18,423 nt of DNA from a virus (lineage: Duplodnaviria; Heunggongvirae; Uroviricota; Caudoviricetes). The DNA lies in the IMG/VR virus record IMGVR_UViG_2879770953_000006; one strand, given 5' to 3'. The notes beneath the pieces are model-generated. The model did no database searches and had not been told where the DNA came from. It saw only the letters and a list, made by a program, of their open reading frames with translations. The stretch's first letter is position 1. Every line of letters starts with the position of its first letter. Below are positions 1 to 18,423 of this stretch, piece by piece. The translations under genes and the position numbers were made by a program.

Positions 1-302
1 GAGCCGCAGAGGGGAAGTTGCGTCCATTTTGAGGGAAACGGAGCAAAAAACCGCCATTCATACCCTGAATCAATCAGAGCCATCCAGTTTAATCGTCGGT
101 TCCGTTCATATGGAGCAAAAGTGGTGTTGAAGAAACATCCGTTTTGTGGTGTTTTTTTAATCTTTTTGGGGTTTTAATTCCTATCGATGAACTGGTGGCG
201 AACTGTGCAGGGTTGGCGTAACCGGGTACGGAAACCGGCGAGCCTTTCGGCTCCCCCACACAGCCCGCCATAAATCGCGAATGTGACTGTGCAAACGATA
301 TG

Positions 303-323
303 AAAAAAGACGCGGGCGCGTCT
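303..323 (-). terminator. Rho-independent terminator (tR'-like) downstream of segment-A Q
   Basis: On the minus strand a GC-rich hairpin (AGACGCG / CGCGTCT, 308-323) is followed by a T6 run (rc of A6 at 303-308). Lies about 90 nt downstream of the Q stop. Confidence 0.55.
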
Positions 324-385
324 CATATCGCTCCGTAAACATCCGGGACGCCAATCCCGACGCCAGATTTTGCTGGCGCGTGAGG

Positions 386-415
386 AATATAGCCCCGGAT
401 AACAAATTGAGTCAA
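386..415 (-). promoter_or_regulatory. Putative late promoter (PR'-like) overlapping the Q stop codon
   Basis: Minus strand reads TTGACT (rc of 410-415), 18-nt spacer, TATATT (rc of 386-391). Position immediately after Q mirrors lambda PR'; the short distance to the terminator at 303-323 suggests a small 6S-like RNA. Confidence 0.4.
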
Positions 416-1985: not shown

Positions 1986-2261
1986 GTGGCTTCCATTTCC
2001 ATCAGATGTCCTTCCTGCTCCGCTACTGAAGGCGTGGTGCGTAACGGCAAAAGCACTGCCGGACATCAGCGCTATCTCTGCTCTCATTGCCGTAAAACAT
2101 GGCAACTACAGTTCACTTACACCGCCTCTCAGCCCGGTACGCACCAGAAAATCATTGATATGGCCATGAATGGCGTCGGATGTCGCGCCAGCGCACGCAT
2201 TATGGGCGTTGGCCTCAACACGGTTTTACGTCACTTAAAAAACTCAGGCCGCAGTCGGTAA
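1986..2261 (+). CDS. insA: IS1 InsA
   Basis: Translation [66 protein letters not shown]... is near-identical to IS1 InsA. Confidence 0.95.
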
Positions 2262-2683
2262 CCTCGCGCATACAACCGGGCAGTGATGTGATTGTCTGCG
2301 CTGAAATGGACGAACATTGGGGCTACGTCGGTGCTAAATCACGTCAGCGCTGGCTGTTTTACGCGTATGACAGGATACGGAGGACGGTTGTGACGCACGT
2401 CTTCGGTGAACGCACTCTGGCCACACTGGAGCGTCTTCTGAGCCTGCTGTCGGCCTTTGAGGTCGTGGTATGGATGACGGATGGCTGGCCGCTGTATGAA
2501 TCACGCCTGAAGGGAAAGCTGCACGTTATCAGCAAGCGTTACACTCAGCGCATTGAGCGACATAATCTGAATCTGAGACAACATCTGGCAAGGCTGGGAC
2601 GGAAGTCACTGTCGTTCTCAAAATCGGTGGAGCTGCATGACAAGGTCATCGGGCATTATCTGAACATAAAACACTATCAGTAA
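2180..2683 (+). CDS. insB: IS1 InsB reading frame (expressed as InsAB' by -1 frameshift)
   Basis: Translation ...[50 protein letters not shown]... matches IS1 InsB. Coordinates are the ORF-track frame. Confidence 0.9.
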
Positions 2684-3188: not shown

Positions 3189-3344
3189 TTACTCCTCAGG
3201 TTCGTAAGCTGTGAAGACAGCGACCTCCGTCTGGCCGGTTCGGATTCGTACCTCGCAGAGGTCTTTCCTCGTTACCAGTGCCGTCACTATGACGGTTAAA
3301 CAGATGACGATCAGGGCGATTAACATCGCCTTTTGCTGCTTCAT
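3189..3344 (-). CDS. hok: Hok-family type I toxin (51 aa), copy 1
   Basis: Translation MKQQKAMLIALIVICLTVIVTALVTRKDLCEVRIRTGQTEVAVFTAYEPEE matches HokD/RelF. ATG at 3342-3344 with SD AAGGAG. CDS is 100% identical in nucleotides to the copy at 16525-16680. Confidence 0.9.
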   Translation of the reverse strand: MKQQKAMLIALIVICLTVIVTALVTRKDLCEVRIRTGQTEVAVFTAYEPEE

Positions 3345-3401
3345 AGCCTGCTTCTCCTTGCCTTTCGGCACGTAAGAGGCTAACCTACATTTGTGAGACA
3401 T
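3189..3401 (-). CDS. mok: Mok-like in-frame upstream extension of hok (70 aa ORF)
   Basis: An ATG at 3399-3401 opens the same frame 19 codons upstream of hok (MSHKCRLASYVPKGKEKQA-MKQQ...), as in chromosomal mok/hok pairs. Absent from the second hok copy. Confidence 0.45.
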   Translation of the reverse strand: MSHKCRLASYVPKGKEKQAMKQQKAMLIALIVICLTVIVTALVTRKDLCEVRIRTGQTEVAVFTAYEPEE

Positions 3402-3682
3402 AGATTGGGCCTCAGATTAATGTTAAGCGTCTTGCAGGACGCGTAATGTTAACTGGGGCTTTTCTCTGTCTGCCTTACAGTGGCATGCCCGAGGCAGACA
3501 GCCTCAAGCACCCGCAGCAATCTTACCGATACCGATAAGAAAACGCTATTTTTTATTGCCAGCACCTTCTATCCAGGCTAATTTATCTGCGTCAGAACGG
3601 CGCAATGCGCTCGCCTGAGATACGTTTACTTGCCATGGTAACAACAGGTAACGGCAATTGCTGTTTCTGTTTTGTTTCCTTC

Positions 3683-3713
3683 AAAAACCCCGGACCATCA
3701 ATCCGGGGTTTTT
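3683..3713. terminator. Bidirectional intrinsic terminator
   Basis: AAAAA-CCCCGGA-CCATCAA-TCCGGGG-TTTTT: 7-bp GC-rich stem flanked by an A-run and a T-run, immediately after the 27-aa ORF. Confidence 0.7.
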
Positions 3714-3718
3714 GTTTG

Positions 3719-3802
3719 TTAACCCCAACGGCAAATCGAATACACCACCAGCGCCACCGCCATCGCAATTCCTACCGTGGTGAATGCCTCAGGCCAGGTC
3801 AT
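3719..3802 (-). CDS. Small hydrophobic peptide (27 aa, MTWPEAFTTVGIAMAVALVVYSICRWG)
   Basis: Not in the ORF track because it is under 60 aa. ATG overlaps the stop of the upstream gene (ATGA at 3799-3802), SD GGAGGTGA upstream, single predicted TM helix, terminator directly downstream. Confidence 0.4.
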   Translation of the reverse strand: MTWPEAFTTVGIAMAVALVVYSICRWG

Positions 3803-4164
3803 TGATTCACCTCCTGCGGTGGTTCCGGTAGCGGCATCCAGTGAGTTGAGCTCTCTACTTCAACGCCGTCTTTGTCCACAAAAGCCATCTTATTCCCGCC
3901 ACGAGTGGGGCAAAAAACCTTATCCCAGGAACCGGGGAATACATTCCCGAGATCATCGAGAAGAATCACATCGCAATATTCAGCAGGAACTGCATCACTA
4001 CAGCTTATCCAGCCAGCCAGAGTTACCGGAGAGTTGCCAGCCTTACGCATGGCCATTTCCACGATTTCAACCATATCTCCTGGTGGAATTTTACAAAGTT
4101 GCCCAATACATTTCTGCTGCCTGGCATATTCGAGAATGTGCTCCAGTTTGGTTCGATTAATCAT
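3799..4164 (-). CDS. Hypothetical phage protein (121 aa), possibly DUF551-type
   Basis: TAATG stop/start overlap with the upstream gene. C-terminal HWMPLPEPP motif recalls DUF551 phage proteins; this is recollection only. Confidence 0.55.
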   Translation of the reverse strand: MINRTKLEHILEYARQQKCIGQLCKIPPGDMVEIVEMAMRKAGNSPVTLAGWISCSDAVPAEYCDVILLDDLGNVFPGSWDKVFCPTRGGNKMAFVDKDGVEVESSTHWMPLPEPPQEVNQ

Positions 4165-4829
4165 TATTTATCTCCCTTAAGCATGGCAGCGCGGCAGGCG
4201 TTCCAGCCATCAACATAATCAAACGTATTACTATCGTTTGGCCCGATTTCATCCGGCACTATCGGCTCTGGTTGGATAGTGACGTTGGCAAAGGCAGCAC
4301 GCAAACCGGTTTTAATTTCTTCGATTTCACCAGAGCCAAGCGATGAATCTGACAGTGCGTGATGGAATGCGTAAGCCATGTCGTCGTTTACTGCAACCGG
4401 CACTGCCGGCGCTGCGTAAAGCGGTGTTATATCTGCCCGAAAATCACATGCTTTATGCAGTCGTACCCAACGCTCAACTTCCGCTTTGTCAAAATATATA
4501 GCAGTGAACGTATTAGATTCCTGGTCAACTTGAGTAAACGTCACCTTCCACGCTACAGCTACGGCTTTCCATCCATCAGGTTGTCGCATTCGCGGGGCAG
4601 CATAAAGCTCATGCATTCCATCAGGCAGCGAGTGACCCACATACTCACCGAACCCGTCAATACACATGCCCCCATCTTCAACAATGCATTCCGCTACAGG
4701 CTCTGCTTCCAGTGATGCCAGAGCGATAAGCGCCAGTTCACGAATTTCACCGCCGTCTATATCGTCAATATCATCGCGGCCAGAAATGTTAGCCAGCCAT
4801 TGCAGTCGCTCTTTGGTAATAGTGGCCAT
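4164..4829 (-). CDS. Hypothetical acidic phage protein (221 aa) with repeated LYAAP motif
   Basis: ATG at 4827-4829 with SD AAGGGG. Overlaps the 3' end of the HNH gene by 73 nt in another frame. No recognisable catalytic motif. Confidence 0.55.
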   Translation of the reverse strand: MATITKERLQWLANISGRDDIDDIDGGEIRELALIALASLEAEPVAECIVEDGGMCIDGFGEYVGHSLPDGMHELYAAPRMRQPDGWKAVAVAWKVTFTQVDQESNTFTAIYFDKAEVERWVRLHKACDFRADITPLYAAPAVPVAVNDDMAYAFHHALSDSSLGSGEIEEIKTGLRAAFANVTIQPEPIVPDEIGPNDSNTFDYVDGWNACRAAMLKGDK

Positions 4830-5503: not shown

Positions 5504-5860
5504 TTATTCAGTTCTGGATTTTGTCGCCCTGCGTATCCGCGCTTTCGCGTTACGCTCAATCTGTATCAGCTTTTCTATATTTCTCCGCCTTTCCTGTTCC
5601 TCCTGGCGCAATAGCCTTACATCATCTGCCAGTCTGGTTTCTCTTTTTGCCACAGAGAGCATCCAGTCAAACGGCTCCACAACCGCACCGCAGATTTTAC
5701 AGCGGACCTGACGCTCTTTTTCGTCAACCCGGACAGAGGCGTGATGGCAATATGGTCTTTCCGATGGTTCATAAAGAAAATTAACCTGATTACGTGGGTC
5801 ATCCTCTTTTACCGGAAATAAAACGATATTGCTTAACTCATCTTCTGGTTTTATTTCCAT
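5504..5860 (-). CDS. Hypothetical Zn-ribbon protein with basic coiled-coil C-terminus (118 aa)
   Basis: Strong SD AAGGAGAGGAG upstream of the ATG at 5858-5860. CHH...CKIC motif, then a Q/E/R-rich C-terminal segment. Confidence 0.6.
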   Translation of the reverse strand: MEIKPEDELSNIVLFPVKEDDPRNQVNFLYEPSERPYCHHASVRVDEKERQVRCKICGAVVEPFDWMLSVAKRETRLADDVRLLRQEEQERRRNIEKLIQIERNAKARIRRATKSRTE

Positions 5861-5917: not shown

Positions 5918-6340
5918 TCACAGTACCGCCTCCTGAAATTTCCCCTGATAAAACGCCAGCACGCGCTGCATAGCTTCGCTCTTCCGGCACTCGCGACAGA
6001 TTATATTCAGGCGCCTGTCGTAGCGGCGTATTTCTCCGTCTGGTAATGACCAGATAAGGTCAGGATCAACCACAACCGGTTTCTTCACCTTTACCCTCGA
6101 TAGCTTTTTGCGGGCGTTTTGCCAGTCTTTATGAGCCTGTTCAGAGGGAAATACCCCGTAGCCAGAATTATATACATCACCACTTGCGACCAGTTCCATG
6201 CATAAGCGACCGACAGACGCACGACTGATACCTGTTTCATCTGACAACTGCCGAATCGTGACCCGACCGTCCTGATGCACGAGTTCCACAATTCGCGTCT
6301 TCAGTTCTTCCCGCTGTTCGGGAGTAAAAGGTTTCGCCAT
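5918..6340 (-). CDS. Putative winged-helix DNA-binding protein (140 aa)
   Basis: SD AGGAGG 7 nt upstream of the ATG. N-terminal HTH-like segment (VTIRQLSDETGISRASVGRLCMELVASGDV) and C-terminal CxxC. Confidence 0.6.
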   Translation of the reverse strand: MAKPFTPEQREELKTRIVELVHQDGRVTIRQLSDETGISRASVGRLCMELVASGDVYNSGYGVFPSEQAHKDWQNARKKLSRVKVKKPVVVDPDLIWSLPDGEIRRYDRRLNIICRECRKSEAMQRVLAFYQGKFQEAVL

Positions 6341-6354
6341 AAATCCTCCTGAAA

Positions 6355-7101
6355 CTACTTAACAACCCTCGAATGGCTAACATTCGGACGCCAGCTCTCC
6401 CAGTTAAAATTCACCCAGCGCCCGCCGTTCATGACCATGCGATCCATCACCCGCTCGCCGAGAAGTGTATTCATCGCTGCATGGTTAATATTTGTCAGCA
6501 TCCCCACACCGCGTAACGATGCCGTCCGGCGATCAACAATCTGGTTCAGTACCACCTGCTCGTTTTTCGTATCCCGCTGCATGCCAATTTCATCCAGGAC
6601 CAGCAGGTCAACACCACAAAGCTCCTGTAAAAATTTTTCACCGGATTTGCCGTTGTCGTAGCTCTCATGCAACACGCTCATGACATCGGACACGGTGACG
6701 ATAATCACGCTACGCCCCTTCGCCATCAGCCGGTTGCCAATCGCGGCTGCAAGATGATTTTTTCCGGTGCCGGGCTTACCGCTGAACACAAAATTCGTAC
6801 AGCCTGTCATCAGTTCGTCAGCTATGGATTTCGCCTGACTCAGTGCATGTCGCTGACCGTCGTTCTGCGCCCGGTAATTCGCAAACGAACACTTCCGGTG
6901 CAACGGCTGGATGCCGGAGCGGTTCAGGATTTTTTCCACCCGCAACTGACGATTCAGGCGGTTGATCTCCTCGCAACGTTTCTGGCCTTCAGCAAGTTGC
7001 CACTCGCGCCACTCCGCAACCGTTCTGAATGGGGCGGTTACATGTGGTGGGGTCAGTCTGCGGATACGCTCCAGAACGCCTCCTGTCGCAATATTTTTCA
7101 T
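6355..7101 (-). CDS. DnaC-like replication protein / helicase loader (IstB-like AAA+ ATPase, YdaV-like), 248 aa
   Basis: Walker A FSGKPGTGKNHLAAAIG and Walker B LLVLDEIG; immediately downstream of the initiator-like gene. Confidence 0.85.
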   Translation of the reverse strand: MKNIATGGVLERIRRLTPPHVTAPFRTVAEWREWQLAEGQKRCEEINRLNRQLRVEKILNRSGIQPLHRKCSFANYRAQNDGQRHALSQAKSIADELMTGCTNFVFSGKPGTGKNHLAAAIGNRLMAKGRSVIIVTVSDVMSVLHESYDNGKSGEKFLQELCGVDLLVLDEIGMQRDTKNEQVVLNQIVDRRTASLRGVGMLTNINHAAMNTLLGERVMDRMVMNGGRWVNFNWESWRPNVSHSRVVK

Positions 7102-7848: not shown

Positions 7849-7939
7849 TAGACTGGCCCCCTGAATCTCCAGACAACCAGTATCACTTATTTAAGTGATA
7901 GTCTTAATACTAGTTTTTAGACTAGTCATTGGAGAACAG

Positions 7940-8305
7940 ATGATTGATGTCTTAGGGCCGGAGAAACGCAGACGGCGTACCACACAGGAAAAGATCGCAA
8001 TTGTTCAGCAGAGCTTTGAACCGGGGATGACGGTCTCCCTCGTTGCCCGGCAACATGGTGTAGCAGCCAGCCAGTTATTTCTCTGGCGTAAGCAATACCA
8101 GGAAGGAAGTCTTACTGCTGTGGCCGCCGGAGAACAGGTTGTTCCTGCCTCTGAACTTGCTGCCGCCATGAAGCAGATTAAAGAACTCCAGCGCCTGCTC
8201 GGCAAGAAAACGATGGAAAATGAACTCCTCAAAGAAGCCGTTGAATATGGACGGGCAAAAAAGTGGATAGCGCACGCGCCCTTATTGCCCGGGGATGGGG
8301 AGTAA
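7940..8305 (+). CDS. insC: IS2 InsC (OrfA), 121 aa
   Basis: Translation [56 protein letters not shown]... matches IS2 InsC; ATG at 7940 with SD GGAGAA. Confidence 0.95.
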
Positions 8306-9168
8306 GCTTAGTCAGCCGTTGTCTCCGGGTGTCGCGTGCGCAGTTGCACGTCATTCTCAGACGAACCGATGACTGGATGGATGGCCGCCGCAGTCGTCAC
8401 ACTGATGATACGGATGTGCTTCTCCGTATACACCATGTTATCGGAGAGCTGCCCACGTATGGTTATCGTCGGGTATGGGCGCTGCTTCGCAGACAGGCAG
8501 AACTTGATGGTATGCCTGCGATCAATGCCAAACGTGTTTACCGGATCATGCGCCAGAATGCGCTGTTGCTTGAGCGAAAACCTGCTGTACCGCCATCGAA
8601 ACGGGCACATACAGGCAGAGTGGCCGTGAAAGAAAGCAATCAGCGATGGTGCTCTGACGGGTTCGAGTTCTGCTGTGATAACGGAGAGAGACTGCGTGTC
8701 ACGTTCGCGCTGGACTGCTGTGATCGTGAGGCACTGCACTGGGCGGTGACTACCGGCGGCTTCAACAGTGAAACAGTACAGGACGTCATGCTGGGAGCGG
8801 TGGAACGCCGCTTCGGCAACGATCTTCCGTCGTCTCCAGTGGAGTGGCTGACGGATAATGGTTCATGCTACCGGGCTAATGAAACACGCCAGTTCGCCCG
8901 GATGTTGGGACTTGAACCGAAGAACACGGCGGTGCGGAGTCCGGAGAGTAACGGAATAGCAGAGAGCTTCGTGAAAACGATAAAGCGTGACTACATCAGT
9001 ATCATGCCCAAACCAGACGGGTTAACGGCAGCAAAGAACCTTGCAGAGGCGTTCGAGCATTATAACGAATGGCATCCGCATAGTGCGCTGGGTTATCGCT
9101 CGCCACGGGAATATCTGCGGCAGCGGGCTTGTAATGGGTTAAGTGATAACAGATGTCTGGAAATATAG
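8263..9168 (+). CDS. insD: IS2 InsD (OrfB transposase), 301 aa
   Basis: Translation ...[50 protein letters not shown]... shows the DDE-type IS3-family transposase signature. Confidence 0.95.
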
Positions 9169-9695: not shown

Positions 9696-9998
9696 ATGAG
9701 CAGAAAAACCCAACGTTACTCTAAAGAGTTCAAAGCCGAAGCTGTCAGAACGGTTCTTGAAAATCAACTTTCGATCAGTGAAGGCGCTTCCCGATTATCT
9801 CTTCCTGAAGGCACTTTAGGACAATGGGTTACCGCCGCCAGAAAAGGGCTCGGTACTCCTGGTTCCCGCACGGTGGCTGAACTGGAATCTGAAATTCTGC
9901 AACTGCGTAAGGCGTTAAATGAAGCTCGCCTTGAGCGAGATATATTAAAAAAAGCAACAGCGTATTTTGCACAGGAGTCGCTGAAAAATACGCGTTAA
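9696..9998 (+). CDS. IS600-like OrfA (100 aa)
   Basis: Translation MSRKTQRYSKEFKAEAVRTVLENQLSISEGASRLSLPEGTLGQWV...; HTH plus leucine-zipper arrangement typical of IS3-family OrfA. Confidence 0.9.
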   Translation: MSRKTQRYSKEFKAEAVRTVLENQLSISEGASRLSLPEGTLGQWVTAARKGLGTPGSRTVAELESEILQLRKALNEARLERDILKKATAYFAQESLKNTR

Positions 9999-10033
9999 TC
10001 GAACAATGGCGACAACAATTTCCCATTGAAGCG

Positions 10034-10852
10034 ATGTGTCAGGTATTTGGTGTATCCAGGAGCGGTTATTACAACTGGGTACAGCATGAACCCTCAGACA
10101 GAAAACAAAGTGATGAGCGGCTAAAACTGGAGATTAAGGTGGCACATATCCGCACTCGCGAAACATATGGAACCCGGCGGCTCCAGACGGAGCTGGCAGA
10201 GAATGGCATCATCGTTGGTCGTGACCGACTGGCACGTCTTCGTAAGGAGCTGAGGCTACGCTGTAAGCAGAAACGCAAGTTCAGAGCGACTACGAACCCG
10301 AACCACAATCTGCCAGTTGCGCCAAATCTGCTGAACCAGACGTTCGCTCCTACAGCACCAAATCAGGTCTGGGTGGCGGACCTGACGTATGTTGCCACAC
10401 AGGAGGGATGGTTGTACCTCGCTGGCATCAAAGATGTTTATACGTGCGAAATTGTCGGCTACGCCATGGGAGAGCGCATGACAAAAGAGCTGACAGGTAA
10501 AGCCCTGTTTATGGCGCTCAGGAGCCAGCGCCCACCTGCCGGGCTAATCCACCACTCTGATCGAGGTTCACAGTACTGCGCATACGATTACCGGGTCATA
10601 CAGGAGCAGTTTGGTCTGAAAACATCAATGTCGCGTAAAGGTAACTGTTACGACAACGCTCCGATGGAAAGCTTCTGGGGAACGCTGAAAAATGAGAGCC
10701 TGAGCCACTATCGTTTTAATAACCGGGATGAAGCCATCTCAGTAATACGGGAATACATTGAGATTTTCTACAATCGTCAGCGTCGTCACTCTCGTCTGGG
10801 GAATATCTCCCCGGCAGCCTTCAGGGAAAAATATCATCAGATGGCTGCTTAA
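10034..10852 (+). CDS. IS600-like OrfB transposase frame (272 aa; normally an OrfAB frameshift fusion)
   Basis: DDE transposase motifs (...WVADLTYV...HHSDRGSQY...NAPMESFWGTLK...). Confidence 0.9.
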   Translation: MCQVFGVSRSGYYNWVQHEPSDRKQSDERLKLEIKVAHIRTRETYGTRRLQTELAENGIIVGRDRLARLRKELRLRCKQKRKFRATTNPNHNLPVAPNLLNQTFAPTAPNQVWVADLTYVATQEGWLYLAGIKDVYTCEIVGYAMGERMTKELTGKALFMALRSQRPPAGLIHHSDRGSQYCAYDYRVIQEQFGLKTSMSRKGNCYDNAPMESFWGTLKNESLSHYRFNNRDEAISVIREYIEIFYNRQRRHSRLGNISPAAFREKYHQMAA

Positions 10853-12147: not shown

Positions 12148-12594
12148 GGAGTTTACTCACATCTGACAAAATCAATATAAACAGCCCCTCCGGAGAGGGG
12201 CTGGAGAGTGGCGCTATGTGCCATTGCATGGTGCCGGGTGCCTCCCGGTGAATTCAGTACCAGCACCTGAATCCGCGATTATCCCATATACCTACTCGCT
12301 GATTGCCCCTCCGCACAGGGGGATTCACCATGCCAGTTTCTTTTAACAAACTCCCCGCAAACCAGACAACAGTCAACCGCCTGAATTGTGAAGTATTTAA
12401 AAATTTCTCCCGCTAACTGATACCCGGCTAACAGTCTGGCGTTTTCTTTTTCAGCAACGGGAAAGCAACAACCACCACACCCGCCACCAGCACACCGTCA
12501 GCCGGCACTGACATTATCCGGCTGCTGCAATGCCATTCACAAAAACAGTAAGCAATCACTTTTTACCGTAACAGGTGATAATCCAGATATGTAT

Positions 12595-13058: not shown

Positions 13059-13135
13059 TGGCGCGCTGTACTGGATTCGAACCAGTGACCGATTGCTTAG
13101 AAGGCAATTGCTCTGTCCGGCTGAGCTAACAACGC
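13059..13135 (-). tRNA. tRNA-Arg (anticodon UCU), phage-encoded
   Basis: rc reads GCGTTGTTAGCTCAGCCGGACAGAGCAATTGCCTTCTAAGCAATCGGTCACTGGTTCGAATCCAGTACAGCGCGCCA. Cloverleaf is consistent: 7-bp acceptor stem with one G-U pair, T-loop GGTTCGAATCC, anticodon loop CTTCTAA, 3' CCA. Confidence 0.85.
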
Positions 13136-13236
13136 TGAATACCGATAATGGACCGCCATCGGGGACCCGCCCCCCGCACCAACAACCCTGTTATCGTGTC
13201 GTCTGCTCTTCCTGATAAGCTAATGGCGGTTTGTGA

Positions 13237-13312
13237 TGGTGGCCCTTGCTGGATTTGAACCAGCGACCTGGCGATTATGAGTCGCTCGCTCTCACCACTG
13301 AGCTAAAGGGCC
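13237..13312 (-). tRNA. tRNA-Ile2 (anticodon CAU, ileX-like; formally could be a Met tRNA)
   Basis: rc reads GGCCCTTTAGCTCAGTGGTGAGAGCGAGCGACTCATAATCGCCAGGTCGCTGGTTCAAATCCAGCAAGGGCCACCA, which closely resembles E. coli ileX. Confidence 0.8.
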
Positions 13313-13455: not shown

Positions 13456-14277
13456 TTACCTAGTTACCTTTTTTAACTGCCGCTCAGCCCATGCTTCTTC
13501 AATATCAAACCGGGTCACCAGCGCATCATAAAATTTCTTAACTGTTTTTTCCCATGACGCGCGTGTTATCTGGTTTGTCACCTCGCATATAGCATTAAAT
13601 GCCTCCGTTGATGGTAGTCTTTCATAGCCACGACCACCACAACGCTGGCAGTCTCTGATAACAGGCATACCACGTTTTACCGACTCTTCACGATGAATGG
13701 CGACACCACGCCCACGGCAATCCTTACAGGCGGTGGAAACCTCACCCTTTCCGCCACACTCCGGACAGGCAACTTTTACCACCTCCCTGACTTTTTTCCA
13801 TTCTTCCCAGTAAGACGGATACACACCTTTCGTGCACTTTGCCCATACCGGCGGCTTACCATCCGGATACTGGATCTTGTTTGTAAAAACTATGCTTTCA
13901 ATAAATTTTTCCCCATAGCAACAAGGGCACTGCTTTTTACTCGCTGCGCTGCGGGCATAATCCTCAAAAGCGTACGAAGCCATAATGCGCATCACTACCG
14001 GTTTTATTTCTGCCGGAAGTTTTCTCAACGCCGCCACACGATCGCACCGACTGAGTGCATAATCTGCCAGTAATTCTGTTGCCCGCGCCCTGTCATTCAT
14101 ACTGATGCCCATTTTCCCCAGGAACGCAGAAAAACCCATCTCAGCCCGATTCTGTGTCATGCCCTGCGCGGCCATCACATCAGTGATACTCAGCGCATCT
14201 TTTGACGTTGAGGCCGATGCATCGGTCAGGCCAGGGGATTTTGGGGAGTAGTATTTCGGTAAATCTTCCAGTTTCAT
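13456..14277 (-). CDS. Q: Antitermination protein Q, lambda type (273 aa), with extra Cys-rich insertion
   Basis: Collinear with lambda Q: KYYSPKSP / KFHSPKSP, SITDVMAAQGM / SGTDVMAAMGM, ASYAFEDYARSAA / ATFAYADYCRSAA, C-terminal ...WEKTVKKFYDALV...VTR. Four CxxC motifs, three of them CxxCxGxG. Confidence 0.85.
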   Translation of the reverse strand: MKLEDLPKYYSPKSPGLTDASASTSKDALSITDVMAAQGMTQNRAEMGFSAFLGKMGISMNDRARATELLADYALSRCDRVAALRKLPAEIKPVVMRIMASYAFEDYARSAASKKQCPCCYGEKFIESIVFTNKIQYPDGKPPVWAKCTKGVYPSYWEEWKKVREVVKVACPECGGKGEVSTACKDCRGRGVAIHREESVKRGMPVIRDCQRCGGRGYERLPSTEAFNAICEVTNQITRASWEKTVKKFYDALVTRFDIEEAWAERQLKKVTR

Positions 14278-14291
14278 TTTTTGACCTGCTC

Positions 14292-14648
14292 TTAATGCAT
14301 TATGGGGTAAATCTTCACCCCCAGACGTCCACCAGATACTGGCTGACCACGAACGATATTGATTTCATCAAACTGCTCATCGTCCATTAACACTCCCGCA
14401 TGCGTCAGCGCATCCAGCGGTGCTTTCAGGATATTGTCCAGGTCGCGACGACGCTTATCCGGTGGCTCTGCAATCACCTTTATCGCCAGCCTTCCGGACA
14501 GGCTTAATTTCAGCCGCTGCTGGCGAACAATAAGCGCCACAGCCCGGCGATAACGCTTTCCCTCCTCCGAGATAAAATATGTGCTGCCACGGCGTCGCCA
14601 GTAAGTGTTCACCGTCGGCGGGTAAGGTAAAACCAAATCTATGAGCAT
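14292..14648 (-). CDS. rusA: RusA-family Holliday-junction resolvase (118 aa)
   Basis: Motif PDKRRRDLDN, overall similarity to RusA, SD AGAGGTGA, position just upstream of Q. Confidence 0.85.
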   Translation of the reverse strand: MLIDLVLPYPPTVNTYWRRRGSTYFISEEGKRYRRAVALIVRQQRLKLSLSGRLAIKVIAEPPDKRRRDLDNILKAPLDALTHAGVLMDDEQFDEINIVRGQPVSGGRLGVKIYPIMH

Positions 14649-14660
14649 CAGTCACCTCTT

Positions 14661-15710
14661 TTACCCAAGCACGCCAGTTGCAAAGGCGTGATCAAGAAAA
14701 CGAAAAATTAAATCAACCTGAGAACCATGCTTTTCTTCGAACGCCAGAGGATCCGCATGAAGCTCGTTGTGATGCTCCCGACACAGCGGTAGCGTGAAAA
14801 TATCGTGAGATTTTGTCCCCATTCCGCCCTGACCATGACCAATCAGGTGATGGGGATCGTCGGCTGGCTTACCACAACACGCACACGGCTGTGTCTTCAC
14901 CCAGCGTTTGTATTTCTCGTTAACCCAACTGCGACGTTTAGGTCGTTTCATGAAAGATTCCGGAGACTCAGGATCAACGGCAATGCTGACCACCGTCTTT
15001 TCCTGTTGTGGGTTCTGTTGCTGGTGGGCGTGAGGCAGCGGCGCAAGATTTTTTGTGCGCTGTTTCAGTATGCTGGTGGCGGTCTGCTCTCCCGGTACGA
15101 TGTCGCTTTCACGGTACATTGAGCGGATTTTTTCCGCACGCAACCCCAGCGAACGACGTAATACCGCTTCCGGTAGCGCGTCCGCCACCTGATTGCGGAC
15201 CGCCCACCAGGATAATTCAGCCAGAGATAATTCACGCTCCTGCGTACCGCTTATTGCGTGACCGATGACGTCAATCATCCATGCTGACAGGTTTTGATGA
15301 GCAAGTTGCTCGAGTGATTCGGATGTCTGGTCACGCAACTGGTTGTCGCAGTGCCAGCACAACACCATTGCGCCGGTACCATAACGGTGAATGACGGTTT
15401 CGCTGTGATGATAATCGCCGTGTGGCCACTGGCAGGATTTAATATGGCGCAACAGCCAGTCAGACAATGCACCAGCACCACCAGCAGCACGAATCACCTG
15501 TGCGTTACTGAAAAACGGCAGCAATGTTTTGTCTTCCACCAGCGGCTGGCGAACGGCAGGAACGACCCCGGACGGCAGATTACGCATGCTTTTCGGTTCC
15601 GGCTCCACCAGTAACCGGGTATTGTGGAATACCGGCATGGATTCACGACCGGGCTTAAGGACCACCAGCCCGAGTTCCGGAACCAGAACAGGTCGAAGTA
15701 ATACCCGCAC
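14661..15710 (-). CDS. YdfU-like phage protein (DUF968-type by recollection; 349 aa) with C-terminal HNH-like Cys/His motif
   Basis: GTG start with SD GGAGG 5 nt upstream. C-terminus CACCGKPADDPHHLIGHGQGGMGTKSHDIFTLPLCREHHNELH. Same length and synteny as Qin-prophage YdfU as I recall it. Confidence 0.65.
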   Translation of the reverse strand: MRVLLRPVLVPELGLVVLKPGRESMPVFHNTRLLVEPEPKSMRNLPSGVVPAVRQPLVEDKTLLPFFSNAQVIRAAGGAGALSDWLLRHIKSCQWPHGDYHHSETVIHRYGTGAMVLCWHCDNQLRDQTSESLEQLAHQNLSAWMIDVIGHAISGTQERELSLAELSWWAVRNQVADALPEAVLRRSLGLRAEKIRSMYRESDIVPGEQTATSILKQRTKNLAPLPHAHQQQNPQQEKTVVSIAVDPESPESFMKRPKRRSWVNEKYKRWVKTQPCACCGKPADDPHHLIGHGQGGMGTKSHDIFTLPLCREHHNELHADPLAFEEKHGSQVDLIFRFLDHAFATGVLG

Positions 15711-16524: not shown

Positions 16525-16680
16525 TTACTCCTCAGGTTCGTAAGCTGTGAAGACAGCGACCTCCGTCTGGCCGGTTCGGATTCGTACCTCGCAGAGGTCT
16601 TTCCTCGTTACCAGTGCCGTCACTATGACGGTTAAACAGATGACGATCAGGGCGATTAACATCGCCTTTTGCTGCTTCAT
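16525..16680 (-). CDS. hokD: HokD (RelF) type I toxin, 51 aa
   Basis: Identical CDS to 3189-3344, SD AGGAGAAG, located 71 nt downstream of relE as in the relBEF operon. Under 60 aa, so absent from the ORF track. Confidence 0.9.
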   Translation of the reverse strand: MKQQKAMLIALIVICLTVIVTALVTRKDLCEVRIRTGQTEVAVFTAYEPEE

Positions 16681-16751
16681 AGCCTGCTTCTCCTGTCAAC
16701 GCAAAGCAGAAGTGTCACCTTCGGTGCGAAACAGAGATGTCATGCTTTGGT

Positions 16752-17039
16752 TCAGAGAATGCGTTTGACCGCCTCGCTATATACTTCCGAGCGTTCTCTT
16801 TTCCCAACAGAAATCACGAAAACGACAACTTTCTCGTCTATAACCTGGTATACAAGGCGATAGCCTGAAGACCGGAGCTTAATCTTGTAACAATCAGGCA
16901 TACCACGGAGCTTGTTTGCTTCAATCCGGGGTGACTCAAGTACTTCAACCAGCTTCTTTTTCAACTGTTCACGTACCGTCGAGCCCAGCTTTCGCCATTC
17001 CTTTAGTGCCCGCTCGTCAAAATCCAGAAAATACGCCAT
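16752..17039 (-). CDS. relE: RelE mRNA interferase toxin (95 aa)
   Basis: Translation MAYFLDFDERALKEWRKLGSTVREQLKKKLVEVLESPRIEANKLRGMPDCYKIKLRSSGYRLVYQVIDEKVVVFVISVGKRERSEVYSEAVKRIL is essentially identical to E. coli RelE as I recall it. Confidence 0.95.
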   Translation of the reverse strand: MAYFLDFDERALKEWRKLGSTVREQLKKKLVEVLESPRIEANKLRGMPDCYKIKLRSSGYRLVYQVIDEKVVVFVISVGKRERSEVYSEAVKRIL

Positions 17040-17278
17040 CAGAGTTCATCCAGCGTCACACGTACTGGCTTAGGATTACGAAGCCGTTCTTTCACTATCT
17101 CCACAAGTTCAGCATCTTCATCACTCAGGAGTGTCTGTTTGAACGGCAAGCGTTCATTGTCAGCGATATACTCGAGCATGAGACGAAGCGCTTCAGAAGG
17201 AGTTACACCCATTTTTTCAAGCGCGGCGTAAGAACGCGCTTTAAGTTCATCGTCAATACGCAGGTTAATGCTACCCAT
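17039..17278 (-). CDS. relB: RelB antitoxin (79 aa)
   Basis: Translation MGSINLRIDDELKARSYAALEKMGVTPSEALRLMLEYIADNERLPFKQTLLSDEDAELVEIVKERLRNPKPVRVTLDEL; ATGA overlap with relE. Confidence 0.95.
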   Translation of the reverse strand: MGSINLRIDDELKARSYAALEKMGVTPSEALRLMLEYIADNERLPFKQTLLSDEDAELVEIVKERLRNPKPVRVTLDEL

Positions 17279-17561: not shown

Positions 17562-18423
17562 TGAGGTGTACTGGCAATAGCGGACACTACCATTTGTTCT
17601 TTTTTTAAGCAGCCATCTGATGATATTTTTCCCTGAAGGCTGCCGGGGAGATATTCCCCAGACGAGAGTGACGACGCTGACGATTGTAGAAAATCTCAAT
17701 GTATTCCCGTATTACTGAGATGGCTTCATCCCGGTTATTAAAACGATAGTGGCTCAGGCTCTCATTTTTCAGCGTTCCCCAGAAGCTTTCCATCGGAGCG
17801 TTGTCGTAACAGTTACCTTTACGCGACATTGATGTTTTCAGACCAAACTGCTCCTGTATGACCCGGTAATCGTATGCGCAGTACTGTGAACCTCGATCAG
17901 AGTGGTGGATTAGCCCGGCAGGTGGGCGCTGGCTCCTGAGCGCCATAAACAGGGCTTTACCTGTCAGCTCTTTTGCCATACGCTCTCCCATGGCGTAGCC
18001 GACAATTTCGCACGTATAAACATCTTTGATGCCAGCGAGGTACAACCATCCCTCCTGTGTGGCAACATACGTCAGGTCCGCCACCCAGACCTGATTTGGT
18101 GCTGTAGGAGCGAACGTCTGGTTCAGCAGATTTGGCGCAACTGGCAGATTGTGGTTCGGGTTCGTAGTCGCTCTGAACTTGCGTTTCTGCTTACAGCGTA
18201 GCCTCTGCTCCTTACGAAGACGTGCCAGTCGGTCACGACCAACGATGATGCCATTCTCTGCCAGCTCCGTCTGGAGCCGCCGGGTTCCATATGTTTCGCG
18301 AGTGCGGATATGTGCCACCTTAATCTCCAGTTTTAGCCGCTCATCACTTTGTTTTCTGTCTGAGGGTTCATGCTGTACCCAGTTGTAATAACCGCTCCTG
18401 GATACACCAAATACCTGACACAT
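17562..18423 (-). mobile_element. IS600-like element, second copy, inverted; partial (runs off the window)
   Basis: rc of 17562-17604 matches the right end of copy 1 (…GTACACCTCA). OrfB is complete; OrfA and the left end lie beyond the window. Confidence 0.85.
17605..18423 (-). CDS. IS600-like OrfB transposase (272 aa)
   Basis: Differs from copy-1 OrfB at 2 residues (L/Q in RLRKE(L/Q)RLR and T/A in GERM(T/A)KE). Confidence 0.9.
   Translation of the reverse strand: MCQVFGVSRSGYYNWVQHEPSDRKQSDERLKLEIKVAHIRTRETYGTRRLQTELAENGIIVGRDRLARLRKEQRLRCKQKRKFRATTNPNHNLPVAPNLLNQTFAPTAPNQVWVADLTYVATQEGWLYLAGIKDVYTCEIVGYAMGERMAKELTGKALFMALRSQRPPAGLIHHSDRGSQYCAYDYRVIQEQFGLKTSMSRKGNCYDNAPMESFWGTLKNESLSHYRFNNRDEAISVIREYIEIFYNRQRRHSRLGNISPAAFREKYHQMAA

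What the first reader, a model, noticed from the sequence alone, without database searches (positions are those of the whole stretch)
3719..3802. Unannotated 27-aa hydrophobic peptide coupled to the upstream gene and followed by a terminator
MTWPEAFTTVGIAMAVALVVYSICRWG has a start overlapping the preceding stop (ATGA), an SD (GGAGGTGA), one predicted TM helix, and a bidirectional terminator 5 nt downstream. It is below the ORF-track cutoff. Small single-helix peptides in prophages are often membrane-active toxins or regulators, and this one sits next to the hok locus.
Basis: seen in the sequence. Interest (0 to 1): 0.5.

Follow-up and report, generated by a model that had tools for sequence, protein, structure and literature searches.

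The report
Conserved unannotated 27-residue phage membrane peptide
The 27-codon reading frame is very probably a real gene for a tiny membrane-spanning protein that many E. coli, Shigella and Salmonella phages carry but annotation pipelines skip; nothing links it mechanistically to the neighbouring hok toxin, and its function is unknown.

Summary
On the minus strand at 3802..3719 there is an ATG-started 27-codon ORF (MTWPEAFTTVGIAMAVALVVYSICRWG). Its ATG overlaps the TGA of a DUF551 gene, GGAGG lies 7 nt upstream, and a strong hairpin with a U-tract starts 5 nt after the stop.

A 27-codon ORF alone means nothing; the comparative data decide it.
- The block recurs in about 2,000 of 5,426 complete E. 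coli genomes, 94 phage records and 181 mostly P1-like plasmids.
- All 133 pattern matches were in frame and stop-free. Length variants were 75, 78 and 90 nt.
- Between deep clades, synonymous sites are near saturation (pS about 0.8) while pN is about 0.35. The hydrophobic core and the MTWPEA and CRWG ends persist.
- Similarity starts at the ribosome-binding site or ATG and ends at the stop codon, with at least 14 unrelated upstream proteins and more than 10 downstream contexts.
- None of 19 inspected phage and non-K-12 E. coli records annotates it, and no Pfam, NCBIfam, PADLOC or PDB match exists.

Best reading: a translationally coupled, early-operon, single-pass inner-membrane small protein. 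Hok adjacency is frequent (60/133) but not obligatory, and the ORF lacks the hallmarks of a type I toxin. It is a new, unnamed family of a known kind, of moderate interest.

The parts
3719..3802 (-). 27-codon small ORF plus stop: MTWPEAFTTVGIAMAVALVVYSICRWG, a predicted single-pass membrane peptide
   Evidence: for sequence and translation. for frame conservation, pN/pS 0.38, in-frame indels and conservative replacements. for the homology block that starts near the ribosome-binding site/ATG and ends at the stop.
3807..3814 (-). Shine-Dalgarno GGAGGTGA, with GGAGG 7 nt before the ATG, lying inside the 3' end of the DUF551 gene
   Evidence: A GGAGG/GAGG-type motif lies upstream of the ATG in almost all of the 133 copies, whatever the upstream gene.
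3799..4164 (-). Upstream DUF551-domain gene (121 aa) whose TGA stop overlaps the small ORF's ATG (ATGA); the translational-coupling partner
   Evidence: and Pfam PF04448 E 3.4e-19. In 115/133 copies an ORF of at least 60 codons ends in the overlapping TGA.
3683..3713 (.). Intrinsic-terminator-like hairpin flanked by an A-tract and a U-tract, beginning 5 nt after the stop codon
   Evidence: -25.2 kcal/mol, z -3.4; 13-pair stem, 7 GC pairs. The same terminator follows the ORF in about 11 other loci, and different hairpins follow it in others.

Best explanation
It is a genuine protein-coding gene for a 27-residue single-pass inner-membrane protein that belongs to the accessory early genes of enterobacterial temperate phages.

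Expression (inferred). It is transcribed as part of the early operon, here the rightward operon between the replication genes and the nin/Q region; in other phages it sits in the exo-xis/b region of the leftward operon. It is translated by coupling or re-initiation at the ATGA overlap with the preceding ea22/DUF551-type gene, using a ribosome-binding site embedded in that gene's last codons. In this window it is the last cistron before a terminator.

Product (inferred). The peptide inserts with its short acidic N-terminus (MTWPEA) outside and its R25-W-G end inside. It acts within the membrane through its conserved small-residue positions (G11, A13, A15, A17, S22) and conserved interfacial ends. 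The most likely action is packing against a host or phage membrane protein, or against itself, during early lytic development.

What is shown: the ORF, the coupling geometry, the ribosome-binding site, the terminator, purifying selection on the peptide frame, modular mobility and wide distribution.

What is inferred: translation in vivo, membrane insertion and topology, timing of expression, and the mode of action, which is the weakest step. The confidence given is for 'real, translated small membrane protein gene'. Confidence in the helix-packing or modulator mechanism specifically is about 0.3.
For: Anatomy
- ATG/TGA overlap, GGAGG at -7, hairpin terminator.

Distribution
- blastn: matches in 2,076 of 5,426 complete E. 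coli genomes, up to 9 places per genome. About five sixths of the sampled rows cover the ORF itself.
- tblastn: 94 phage records, including 933W, VT2-Sakai, Min27, BP-4795, P1-like SJ46 and Vequintavirinae TH18.
- tblastn: 181 plasmids, mostly 90-100 kb and non-mobilizable; E. coli 155, Salmonella 25, Klebsiella 1.

Reading frame
- 133 of 133 pattern matches in the loci held at that point (all but one of the loci; 120 of them IMG/VR viral contigs) are in frame with no internal stop. Lengths are 84 nt (128 copies), 75 nt (3), 78 nt (1) and 90 nt (1), all multiples of 3.
- A second scan that required a different proline codon gave 25 of 25 intact 27-codon ORFs.
- By contrast, of 24 chance matches in unrelated genomes only 4 were in frame and stop-free, and none is hydrophobic.

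Selection
- 58 unique 84-nt sequences. Within codons 7-25, which the search pattern did not fix, pN/pS is 0.38, against 1.05-1.83 in three of the five other frames; the fourth, wobble-matched antisense frame is dealt with in the Against line.
- Deepest pairs: pS 0.73-0.85 against pN 0.33-0.39.
- Replaced residues average +0.45 in BLOSUM62.
- All 40 variants stay hydrophobic. M1, W3, P4, A6, G11 and W26 are invariant; A15, S22, C24, R25 and G27 are at least 90% conserved.

Modularity
- Similarity begins at the ribosome-binding site/ATG and stops at the stop codon in nine contexts.
- There are 14 clusters of upstream proteins: DUF551-ending, a 114-aa family with no Pfam match, the 933W L0139 type and an EaA-like type.
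- There are more than 10 downstream sequences.

Gap filling
- In tightly packed co-directional operons the ORF exactly fills an unannotated gap of about 80 nt: SJ46 1501-1578, TH18 1504-1587, PhiR12_1 1504-1589, 813R1 1204-1287.
Against: - There is no direct evidence of translation. The peptide string is absent from the searchable literature and from the supplements of two EHEC ribosome-profiling papers.
- The antisense frame that shares wobble positions shows an equally low pN/pS (0.33). The substitution ratio alone therefore does not choose the strand. The choice rests on start and stop placement, the ribosome-binding site, replacement quality and gap filling.
- The sample is dominated by closely related E. 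coli prophages and is not phylogenetically independent.
- Conservation does not follow an alpha-helical 100-degree periodicity (permutation p = 0.83), so a single conserved helix face is not demonstrated. The pattern has period 2.
- Shigella phage POCJ13 carries TGG>TAG at codon 3, so the gene is dispensable in at least one isolate.
- Topology rests on a single arginine.
Confidence: 0.8

Rival explanations
1. It is a small membrane-active toxin of the type I kind (like Hok, TisB, Ibs or DinQ), or a phage 'kil'-type host-killing peptide, possibly working together with the neighbouring hok/sok locus.
For: - Its size and hydrophobicity are typical of such toxins.
- Hok lies within 1.2 kb downstream in 60 of 133 copies. 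In about 55 of these the hok promoter region starts directly after the stop codon (933W).
- Alternating small residues (G11/A13/A15/A17) and a sub-threshold match to a glycine-zipper region (PF19029, E 0.042) would suit a self-associating, pore-forming helix.
Against: - No antisense RNA family overlaps it, and the consensus scan finds no promoter of its own.
- It is always ATGA-coupled to an upstream early gene.
- It has no similarity to Hok/Gef or to any toxin or defence model.
- It occurs without hok in more than half of the copies, next to other modules.
- It is present in up to 9 places per genome, including decayed prophages such as this IS-riddled one.
Confidence: 0.15
2. The peptide sequence is irrelevant. 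The block is a conserved non-coding element: a recombination 'boundary/linker' sequence between mosaic modules, an RNA structure, or an ORF whose act of translation matters, for example by keeping ribosomes on the mRNA up to the terminator or modulating hairpin formation 5 nt downstream.
For: - The block sits exactly at mosaic junctions.
- In this window the stop codon is only 5 nt from the terminator stem, so a terminating ribosome would cover part of the left arm.
Against: - The substitution pattern is codon-periodic, and amino-acid replacements are conservative.
- All indels are in frame.
- The invariant residues are spread along the peptide.
- The downstream element is not conserved: it may be a terminator, the hok promoter or the next gene. 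A fixed attenuation geometry therefore does not exist.
Confidence: 0.05
3. The real gene is on the opposite (+) strand, and the minus-strand ORF is its shadow. An example is the 127-codon ORF 3777..4160(+).
For: The wobble-matched antisense frame is open in 57 of 58 unique sequences and has pN/pS 0.33.
Against: - That frame has no ATG in 87 of 133 loci and no start codon at all in 18. Where a start exists, it usually lies 58-61 nt into the block, and the ORF lengths are erratic.
- Replaced residues score -0.69 in BLOSUM62, against +0.45 for the sense frame.
- In the window this ORF runs antisense through the Pfam-supported DUF551 gene.
- An open antisense frame is expected opposite Ala/Val/Gly/Ile-rich codons.
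Confidence: 0.02
4. It is not a separate protein but a C-terminal membrane anchor added to the upstream protein by programmed frameshifting at the ATGA overlap.
For: - It is always fused head to tail with an upstream ORF, in the -1 frame relative to it.
- DUF551 is described in the literature as a portable C-terminal domain (PMC10834534).
Against: - There is no slippery heptamer before the overlap in either main junction type (GTGAATCAATGA, ATTTTACGATGA).
- A ribosome-binding site lies at proper spacing in nearly every copy; the ATG itself was fixed by the search pattern, but the independent tblastn alignments in phages and plasmids start at residue 1.
- In SJ46 a stop codon lies 4 codons upstream in the peptide's frame.
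- The upstream proteins belong to unrelated families.
Confidence: 0.03

Closest known systems
Bacterial small single-pass membrane proteins that bind and modulate larger membrane proteins (KdpF 29 aa, MgtS 31 aa, PmrR 29 aa, AcrZ 49 aa, MgrB 47 aa). The names and sizes are from my own knowledge of the field.
   Same: Length, one hydrophobic helix with very short tails, no signal peptide, conserved small residues within the helix, and routine omission by gene callers.
   Different: There is no sequence relationship: the best match, KdpF TIGR02115, scores 14.7 bits against a cutoff of 26.85 and covers 12 residues. This peptide is phage-borne and mobile, is ATGA-coupled to ea22/DUF551-type genes, and has no known partner.
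Type I toxin peptides: Hok/Gef (the neighbouring locus at 3189-3513), TisB, Ibs, DinQ
   Same: A small hydrophobic inner-membrane peptide on a prophage that frequently sits directly next to hok/sok.
   Different: It has no antisense RNA, no promoter of its own, no long folded leader and no Hok homology. It is expressed as the distal cistron of an operon.
Accessory genes of the lambda exo-xis/b region and nin region (ea22, ea8.5, orf60a/61/63/73, nin genes)
   Same: The genomic address and presumably the timing are the same. The ORF follows Ea22-like or DUF551 genes and precedes ea8.5-position genes, xis and int in several Stx phages, or lies between the replication and nin/Q genes, as in this window. 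These regions are mosaic and non-essential.
   Different: The exo-xis papers read here do not mention it. It was not found in the first 9 kb of phage 24B, where the DUF551 gene's ribosome-binding site serves a different downstream gene. The characterised exo-xis proteins are soluble.
PHROG family phrog_4612 (unknown function, 57-position profile)
   Same: A weak match of residues 1-23 to profile positions 33-54 (E 0.019, 16.3 bits).
   Different: The match is not significant for a hydrophobic 27-mer. The profile is twice as long, and no function is attached to it.

Membership tests
Protein-coding gene (general criteria) | Reading frame kept open, with start and stop conserved across diverged homologues; indels in multiples of three | tested here: met
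   133/133 and 25/25 copies are intact, with lengths 75, 78, 84 and 90 nt. The one exception is POCJ13, with TGG>TAG.
Protein-coding gene (general criteria) | Excess of synonymous over non-synonymous change in this frame relative to other frames | tested here: met
   pN/pS is 0.38, against 1.05-1.83 in three of the five other frames. The wobble-matched antisense frame is equally low (0.33) and was excluded on other grounds.
Protein-coding gene (general criteria) | Ribosome occupancy or a detectable product | not testable with these tools
   No profiling data are available. The peptide is absent from two EHEC Ribo-seq supplements.
Single-pass membrane protein | Uncharged hydrophobic stretch of about 18-20 residues, retained in all homologues | tested here: met
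   Residues 7-24 have mean Kyte-Doolittle values of 1.36 (min), 2.11 (mean) and 2.82 (max) over 40 variants.
Single-pass membrane protein | Demonstrated membrane localisation and topology | not testable with these tools
   The N-out/C-in topology is inferred from R25 alone (positive-inside rule).
Hok/Gef type I toxin-antitoxin | Homology to the Hok/Gef peptide family | tested here: not met
   No Pfam, PHROG (phrog_251) or NCBIfam hit for the peptide, whereas the neighbouring ORF 3189..3401 hits phrog_251 at 7.7e-33.
Hok/Gef type I toxin-antitoxin | Cis-encoded antisense RNA antitoxin and a promoter of its own | tested here: not met
   The Rfam sok match is confined to 3339-3513. There is no promoter-like site near 3800-3900 on the minus strand. 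The consensus scan is weak evidence.
KdpF (TIGR02115) | Score above the curated cutoff, and adjacency to kdpABC | tested here: not met
   14.7 bits against a cutoff of 26.85. The context is a prophage early operon.
Intrinsic terminator | GC-rich hairpin followed by a U-tract | tested here: met
   Termination activity itself was not tested.
phrog_4612 | Significant profile match over most of the profile | tested here: inconclusive
   E 0.019, covering 22 of 57 profile positions.

The most novel reading that the evidence does not exclude
The peptide is a widespread, so far unrecognised effector of temperate enterobacterial phages: lambdoid and Stx phages, P1-like phage-plasmids and some Vequintavirinae. 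It would be made early after induction or infection and would target a specific host inner-membrane protein, for instance to block superinfection, to counter a membrane-based defence, or to tune the lysis-lysogeny decision. Because it overlaps the stop codon of ea22/DUF551-type genes, and its ribosome-binding site lies inside them, some phenotypes assigned to deletions or clones of those genes in phages that carry it could be partly due to this peptide.
Probability: 0.25. Interest if true: 0.65.

Novelty: new member of a known kind. Interest (0 to 1): 0.42.

Why it matters
- Small phage proteins are a recognised blind spot. This one is unusually well supported by comparative evidence alone, and it is very common: roughly a third of complete E. 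coli genomes, often in several copies, the Shiga-toxin phages 933W and VT2-Sakai, and P1-like phage-plasmids of E. coli and Salmonella.
- RefSeq and most phage records omit it, and it has no family model.
- It is absent from the five E. coli K-12 prophages checked. K-12 is the strain in which small proteins have been catalogued most systematically, which probably explains why this peptide has no name.
- Adding it to annotation would close a recurrent 80-nt 'intergenic' gap.
- It would also flag a possible polar or overlap confound in genetic work on ea22/DUF551 genes, and it gives a short, easily synthesised candidate for studies of phage-host membrane interactions.

Tried and rejected
By their stated 30-aa minimum, the search of protein representatives and structure prediction could not take it either and were not called. 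No deep protein-database search or structure model was therefore possible.
- Family libraries. Pfam, NCBIfam, PADLOC and a PDB profile search gave nothing above threshold. PHROGs gave one weak hit.
- Literature. The peptide string has no hit. It is absent from the supplements of two EHEC translatome papers. The exo-xis and Ea22 papers do not mention such an ORF.
- Conserved helix face. A test at 100 degrees was negative (p = 0.83), so I do not claim a defined interaction face.
- One-genome-per-species scan. Besides chance matches, it found only E. coli, Shigella flexneri and a 431-bp contig in a Xanthomonas pisi assembly. No evidence was found for the family outside enterobacterial phages.
- A scan for copies with other proline codons found only more of the same family.
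- Phage 24B. I checked whether the ea22_V2 gene of this well-studied phage is followed by the ORF. It is not, at least within the first 9 kb. The 'confound for ea22 studies' argument was narrowed accordingly.
- Frameshift-anchor idea. Considered and rejected: there is no slippery site, and the ORF has its own ribosome-binding site and ATG.

Full report
**1. What is in the window**

Read on the minus strand, positions 3802-3719 are an ATG-started ORF of 27 codons plus TAA, encoding MTWPEAFTTVGIAMAVALVVYSICRWG.

- The ATG (3802-3800) shares two bases with the TGA (3801-3799) of the ORF 3799..4164(-). That ORF is a 121-aa DUF551-domain protein (Pfam PF04448, E 3.4e-19).
- GGAGGTGA lies at 3814-3807, so GGAGG is 7 nt from the ATG.
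- Five bases after the stop begins AAAAACCCCGGA...TCCGGGGUUUUU (3713-3683). It folds at -25.2 kcal/mol, with z = -3.4 against shuffles. The consensus scan reports it as a 13-pair, 7-GC stem. Because it is flanked by an A-tract and a U-tract, it is bidirectional in form.

By itself this means little, because the first 8 kb of the window contain 136 ORFs of at least 20 codons.

**2. Surroundings**

The ORF lies in a minus-strand operon of a lambdoid prophage interrupted by IS elements. The order is:

- a DnaC-like ATPase (6355..7101);
- DUF977 (5918..6340);
- several small genes;
- a 221-aa protein (4164..4829);
- the DUF551 gene;
- the small ORF;
- the terminator;
- a hok/mok/sok locus (Rfam sok at 3339-3513, 118 bits; the Mok/Hok ORF 3189..3401 hits phrog_251 at 7.7e-33);
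- an IS1;
- DUF1367, DUF1364 and DUF1133 (nin/Q-type) genes.

A near-identical arrangement in E. coli FDAARGOS_944 is annotated in the same way, with nothing between the DUF551 gene and hok.

**3. Distribution**

- A 171-nt query centred on the ORF matches 2,145 records in 2,076 of 5,426 complete E. coli genomes, with up to 9 places per genome. In an evenly spaced sample of the ranking, about five sixths of the rows cover the ORF itself. Many alignments begin exactly at query base 39, which is the ATG, under an unrelated upstream 'hypothetical protein'.
- tblastn with the peptide finds 94 phage records. They include 933W, VT2-Sakai, Min27, Stx2 I/II, BP-4795, YYZ-2008, ArgO145, the P1-like SJ46 and 813R1, and Vequintavirinae TH18.
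- tblastn also finds 181 plasmids, mostly 90-100 kb and non-mobilizable, which fits P1-like phage-plasmids. By organism: Escherichia 155, Salmonella 25, Klebsiella 1.
- In a collection with one genome per species, only E. coli and Shigella flexneri carry it, two copies each. A 431-bp contig in a Xanthomonas pisi assembly is identical to the 933W variant and is probably contamination.
- The exact window peptide is on 79 contigs in the public protein collection. A few submitters named it 'bacteriophage protein' or 'hypothetical protein'.
- In all 19 phage and non-K-12 E. coli records I opened, it is not annotated.

**4. Is the frame conserved?**

I scanned IMG/VR with a degenerate pattern that fixes only M-[ST]-W-P-[DE]-A at the start and W-[GR]-stop at the end, with a free gap of 40-70 nt.

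- Together with the loci already fetched, this gave 133 matches. All are in frame and free of internal stops. Lengths are 84 nt (128 copies), 75 (3), 78 (1) and 90 (1), all multiples of three.
- The same pattern in unrelated genomes gave 24 chance matches. Only 4 of them were in frame and stop-free, and none is hydrophobic.
- A second scan that required a non-CCT proline codon returned 25 further copies, all intact.
- There are 40 peptide variants and 58 unique 84-nt sequences.
- Within codons 7-25, which the pattern did not constrain, pN/pS is 0.38. Between the deepest clades (for example MTWPEAF..YSICRWG against MSWPDAIVTLGVVFAAAFVVFSICRWG), pS is 0.73-0.85, near saturation, and pN is 0.33-0.39.
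- M1, W3, P4, A6, G11 and W26 are invariant. A15, S22, C24, R25 and G27 are at least 90% conserved.
- The core stays hydrophobic in every variant: mean Kyte-Doolittle 1.36-2.82.
- The single defective copy seen is in Shigella phage POCJ13 (TGG>TAG at codon 3).

**5. A caveat and its resolution**

The antisense frame that shares third positions with the sense frame shows an equally low pN/pS (0.33) and is open in 57 of 58 sequences. This is expected opposite Ala/Val/Gly/Ile codons, and it means the ratio alone cannot assign the strand. Four other observations do:

- In that antisense frame, 87 of 133 loci have no ATG and 18 have no start codon at all. Where a start exists, it usually lies 58-61 nt inside the block.
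- Replaced residues average -0.69 in BLOSUM62, against +0.45 in the sense frame.
- In the window the antisense ORF (3777..4160+) is simply the shadow of the Pfam-supported DUF551 gene.
- The sense ORF has an ATG, a ribosome-binding site and a stop that coincide with the limits of the conserved block.

**6. Modularity**

An alignment of nine contexts shows similarity starting at the ribosome-binding site/ATG and ending at the stop codon, with unrelated flanks.

Upstream:
- In 115 of 133 copies an ORF of at least 60 codons ends in the overlapping TGA.
- These upstream proteins fall into 14 clusters.
- About 70 of 116 are architectures ending in DUF551.
- 30 belong to a 114-aa family with no Pfam match.
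- 10 are the 933W L0139 type (zinc-ribbon/coiled-coil).
- One is an EaA-like protein.
- A GGAGG/GAGG motif precedes the ATG throughout.

Downstream:
- About 55 copies run straight into the hok promoter region, as in 933W.
- About 32 are followed after 5 nt by a gene starting MFALIQRG.., close to xis and int.
- About 11 have the window's terminator.
- The rest have at least five other hairpins, a KilA-N gene or another toxin-antitoxin pair.

In compact co-directional operons the ORF exactly fills an otherwise unexplained gap: SJ46 1501-1578, TH18 1504-1587, PhiR12_1 1504-1589 and 813R1 1204-1287.

A discrete block that keeps its frame while everything around it is exchanged is the signature of a gene in mosaic phage genomes.

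**7. What it most likely is and does**

Shown:
- a conserved, mobile, ATGA-coupled 27-codon gene under purifying selection;
- a product consisting of one hydrophobic helix bracketed by conserved MTWPEA and C-R-W-G ends.

Inferred:
- translation by coupling or re-initiation from the upstream early gene;
- expression with early transcripts, either the rightward operon as here or the leftward exo-xis/b region as in Stx phages;
- membrane insertion with the N-terminus out and the C-terminus in, which rests on R25 only.

Mode of action is the weakest step. The conserved small residues at positions 11, 13, 15 and 17, plus S22 and C24, point to helix packing with a partner or with itself. However, conservation has period 2 and not the 3.6-residue periodicity of a single helix face (p = 0.83). 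I therefore hold the 'modulator of a membrane protein' reading at about 0.3 and a toxin-like action at about 0.15.

**8. Relation to hok**

Adjacency is frequent (60/133) but not required. The ORF shows none of the defining features of a type I toxin locus:
- no homology to such toxins;
- no antisense RNA family over it;
- no promoter of its own in the scan.

It is always the distal cistron of another gene. The window holds a second, identical hok copy at 16528-16680(-), next to a relBE-like pair, and that copy has no copy of the peptide beside it.

**9. Comparison with what is known**

There is no Pfam, NCBIfam, PADLOC or PDB relative. The best sub-threshold matches are KdpF (14.7 bits against a cutoff of 26.85), a glycine-zipper region (E 0.042) and phrog_4612 (E 0.019). 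None establishes membership.

In kind, the peptide resembles the small single-pass membrane proteins of E. coli and the many predicted small phage proteins. In address, it belongs with the exo-xis and nin accessory genes, but the Ea22 and exo-xis papers read here do not mention it.

It is absent from the K-12 prophages Rac, Qin, CPS-53, DLP12 and e14. That probably explains why it has no name.

In phage 24B, the DUF551-type ea22 gene is followed by a different gene that uses the same ribosome-binding site, and the peptide is not within the first 9 kb. Any confounding of ea22 genetics therefore applies only to phages that carry the ORF behind such a gene, for example WGPS2 and PhiR12 and, from the tblastn coordinates, BP-4795, YYZ-2008 and VT1-Sakai.

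**10. Verdict**

- The interpretation as a real small membrane-peptide gene is supported, with confidence about 0.8.
- The toxin and hok link is not supported.
- It is a new, unnamed family of a known kind. It is widespread and cheap to test, but not surprising in principle. Interest is 0.42.

Noticed in passing
window 16528-17278 (-): There is a second hok copy, with a peptide 100% identical to the one at 3192-3344. It lies directly downstream of a RelE-like (16752..17039) and RelB-like (17039..17278) pair, the same order as relB-relE-hokD in the K-12 Qin prophage. Rfam reported only one sok match in the window, and no copy of the 27-aa ORF lies beside this second hok.
   Followed up: partly
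window 3514-3682 (-): About 170 nt of spacer lie between the terminator and the hok/sok locus. This spacer is absent in 933W-type loci, where the hok promoter region starts right after the small ORF's stop. It contains a weak second terminator-like site at 3650-3665 (+). Its function is unknown.
   Followed up: no
window 191-392 (-): Rfam matches to C4 antisense RNA (77.6 bits), its a1/b1 target (52.2 bits) and isrK (75.6 bits). They lie just downstream of the DUF1133 (Q-like) gene and form a P1/P7-type C4 immunity-like element in a lambdoid context.
   Followed up: no
window 12173-12362 (-) and 13062-13312 (-): An sRNA STnc100 match (132 bits) and two tRNA genes, in a second, Qin-like prophage segment (Q-like 13456..14277, RusA 14292..14648, DUF968-like 14661..15710).
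   Followed up: no
window 1986-2683 (+), 7895-9168 (+), 9696-10852 (+), 17605-18423 (-): Several insertion sequences interrupt the prophage genes: an IS1-like element, an IS3-family element with a 301-aa transposase, and two almost identical copies of a 272-aa IS3-family orfB. The DUF551 protein is named 'MULTISPECIES [Shigella]' on more than 1,000 contigs. The window is therefore probably from a Shigella chromosome with decaying prophages.
   Followed up: partly
L011 (Shigella phage POCJ13, NC_025434.1) 1501-1584: This is the only defective copy seen: TGG>TAG at codon 3 of an otherwise conserved ORF. The record annotates two small ORFs on the opposite strand there (gp72, gp73), which are probably spurious.
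   Followed up: partly
L151 (Xanthomonas pisi DSM 18956, contig of 431 bp): This contig carries the 933W-type variant of the peptide gene. It is almost certainly E. coli or Stx-phage contamination of that assembly.
   Followed up: no
L224 (phage 24B, HM208303.1) about 2830: The DUF551-type ea22 gene ends ..PLPEPPQEVNRG*. Its embedded GGAGG serves a different, GTG-started downstream gene. Similarity with the window breaks right after the ribosome-binding site, so that site is a shared feature of the DUF551 3' end and is reused for whichever gene follows. The record also annotates a 23-codon CDS (vb_24B_5c) inside the gene.
   Followed up: partly
protein collection: The 27-aa peptide is filed in the same 90%-identity cluster as the 121-aa DUF551 proteins (229 members). 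This looks like a clustering artefact and would hide the peptide from searches based on cluster representatives.
   Followed up: no
window 5504..5860 (-): This 118-aa ORF has a CxxC...CxxC zinc-ribbon followed by a coiled-coil-like tail. By eye it resembles the 933W L0139-type protein that precedes the small ORF in 933W. In this window it sits 1.7 kb upstream and is not coupled to the peptide. No alignment was run.
   Followed up: no
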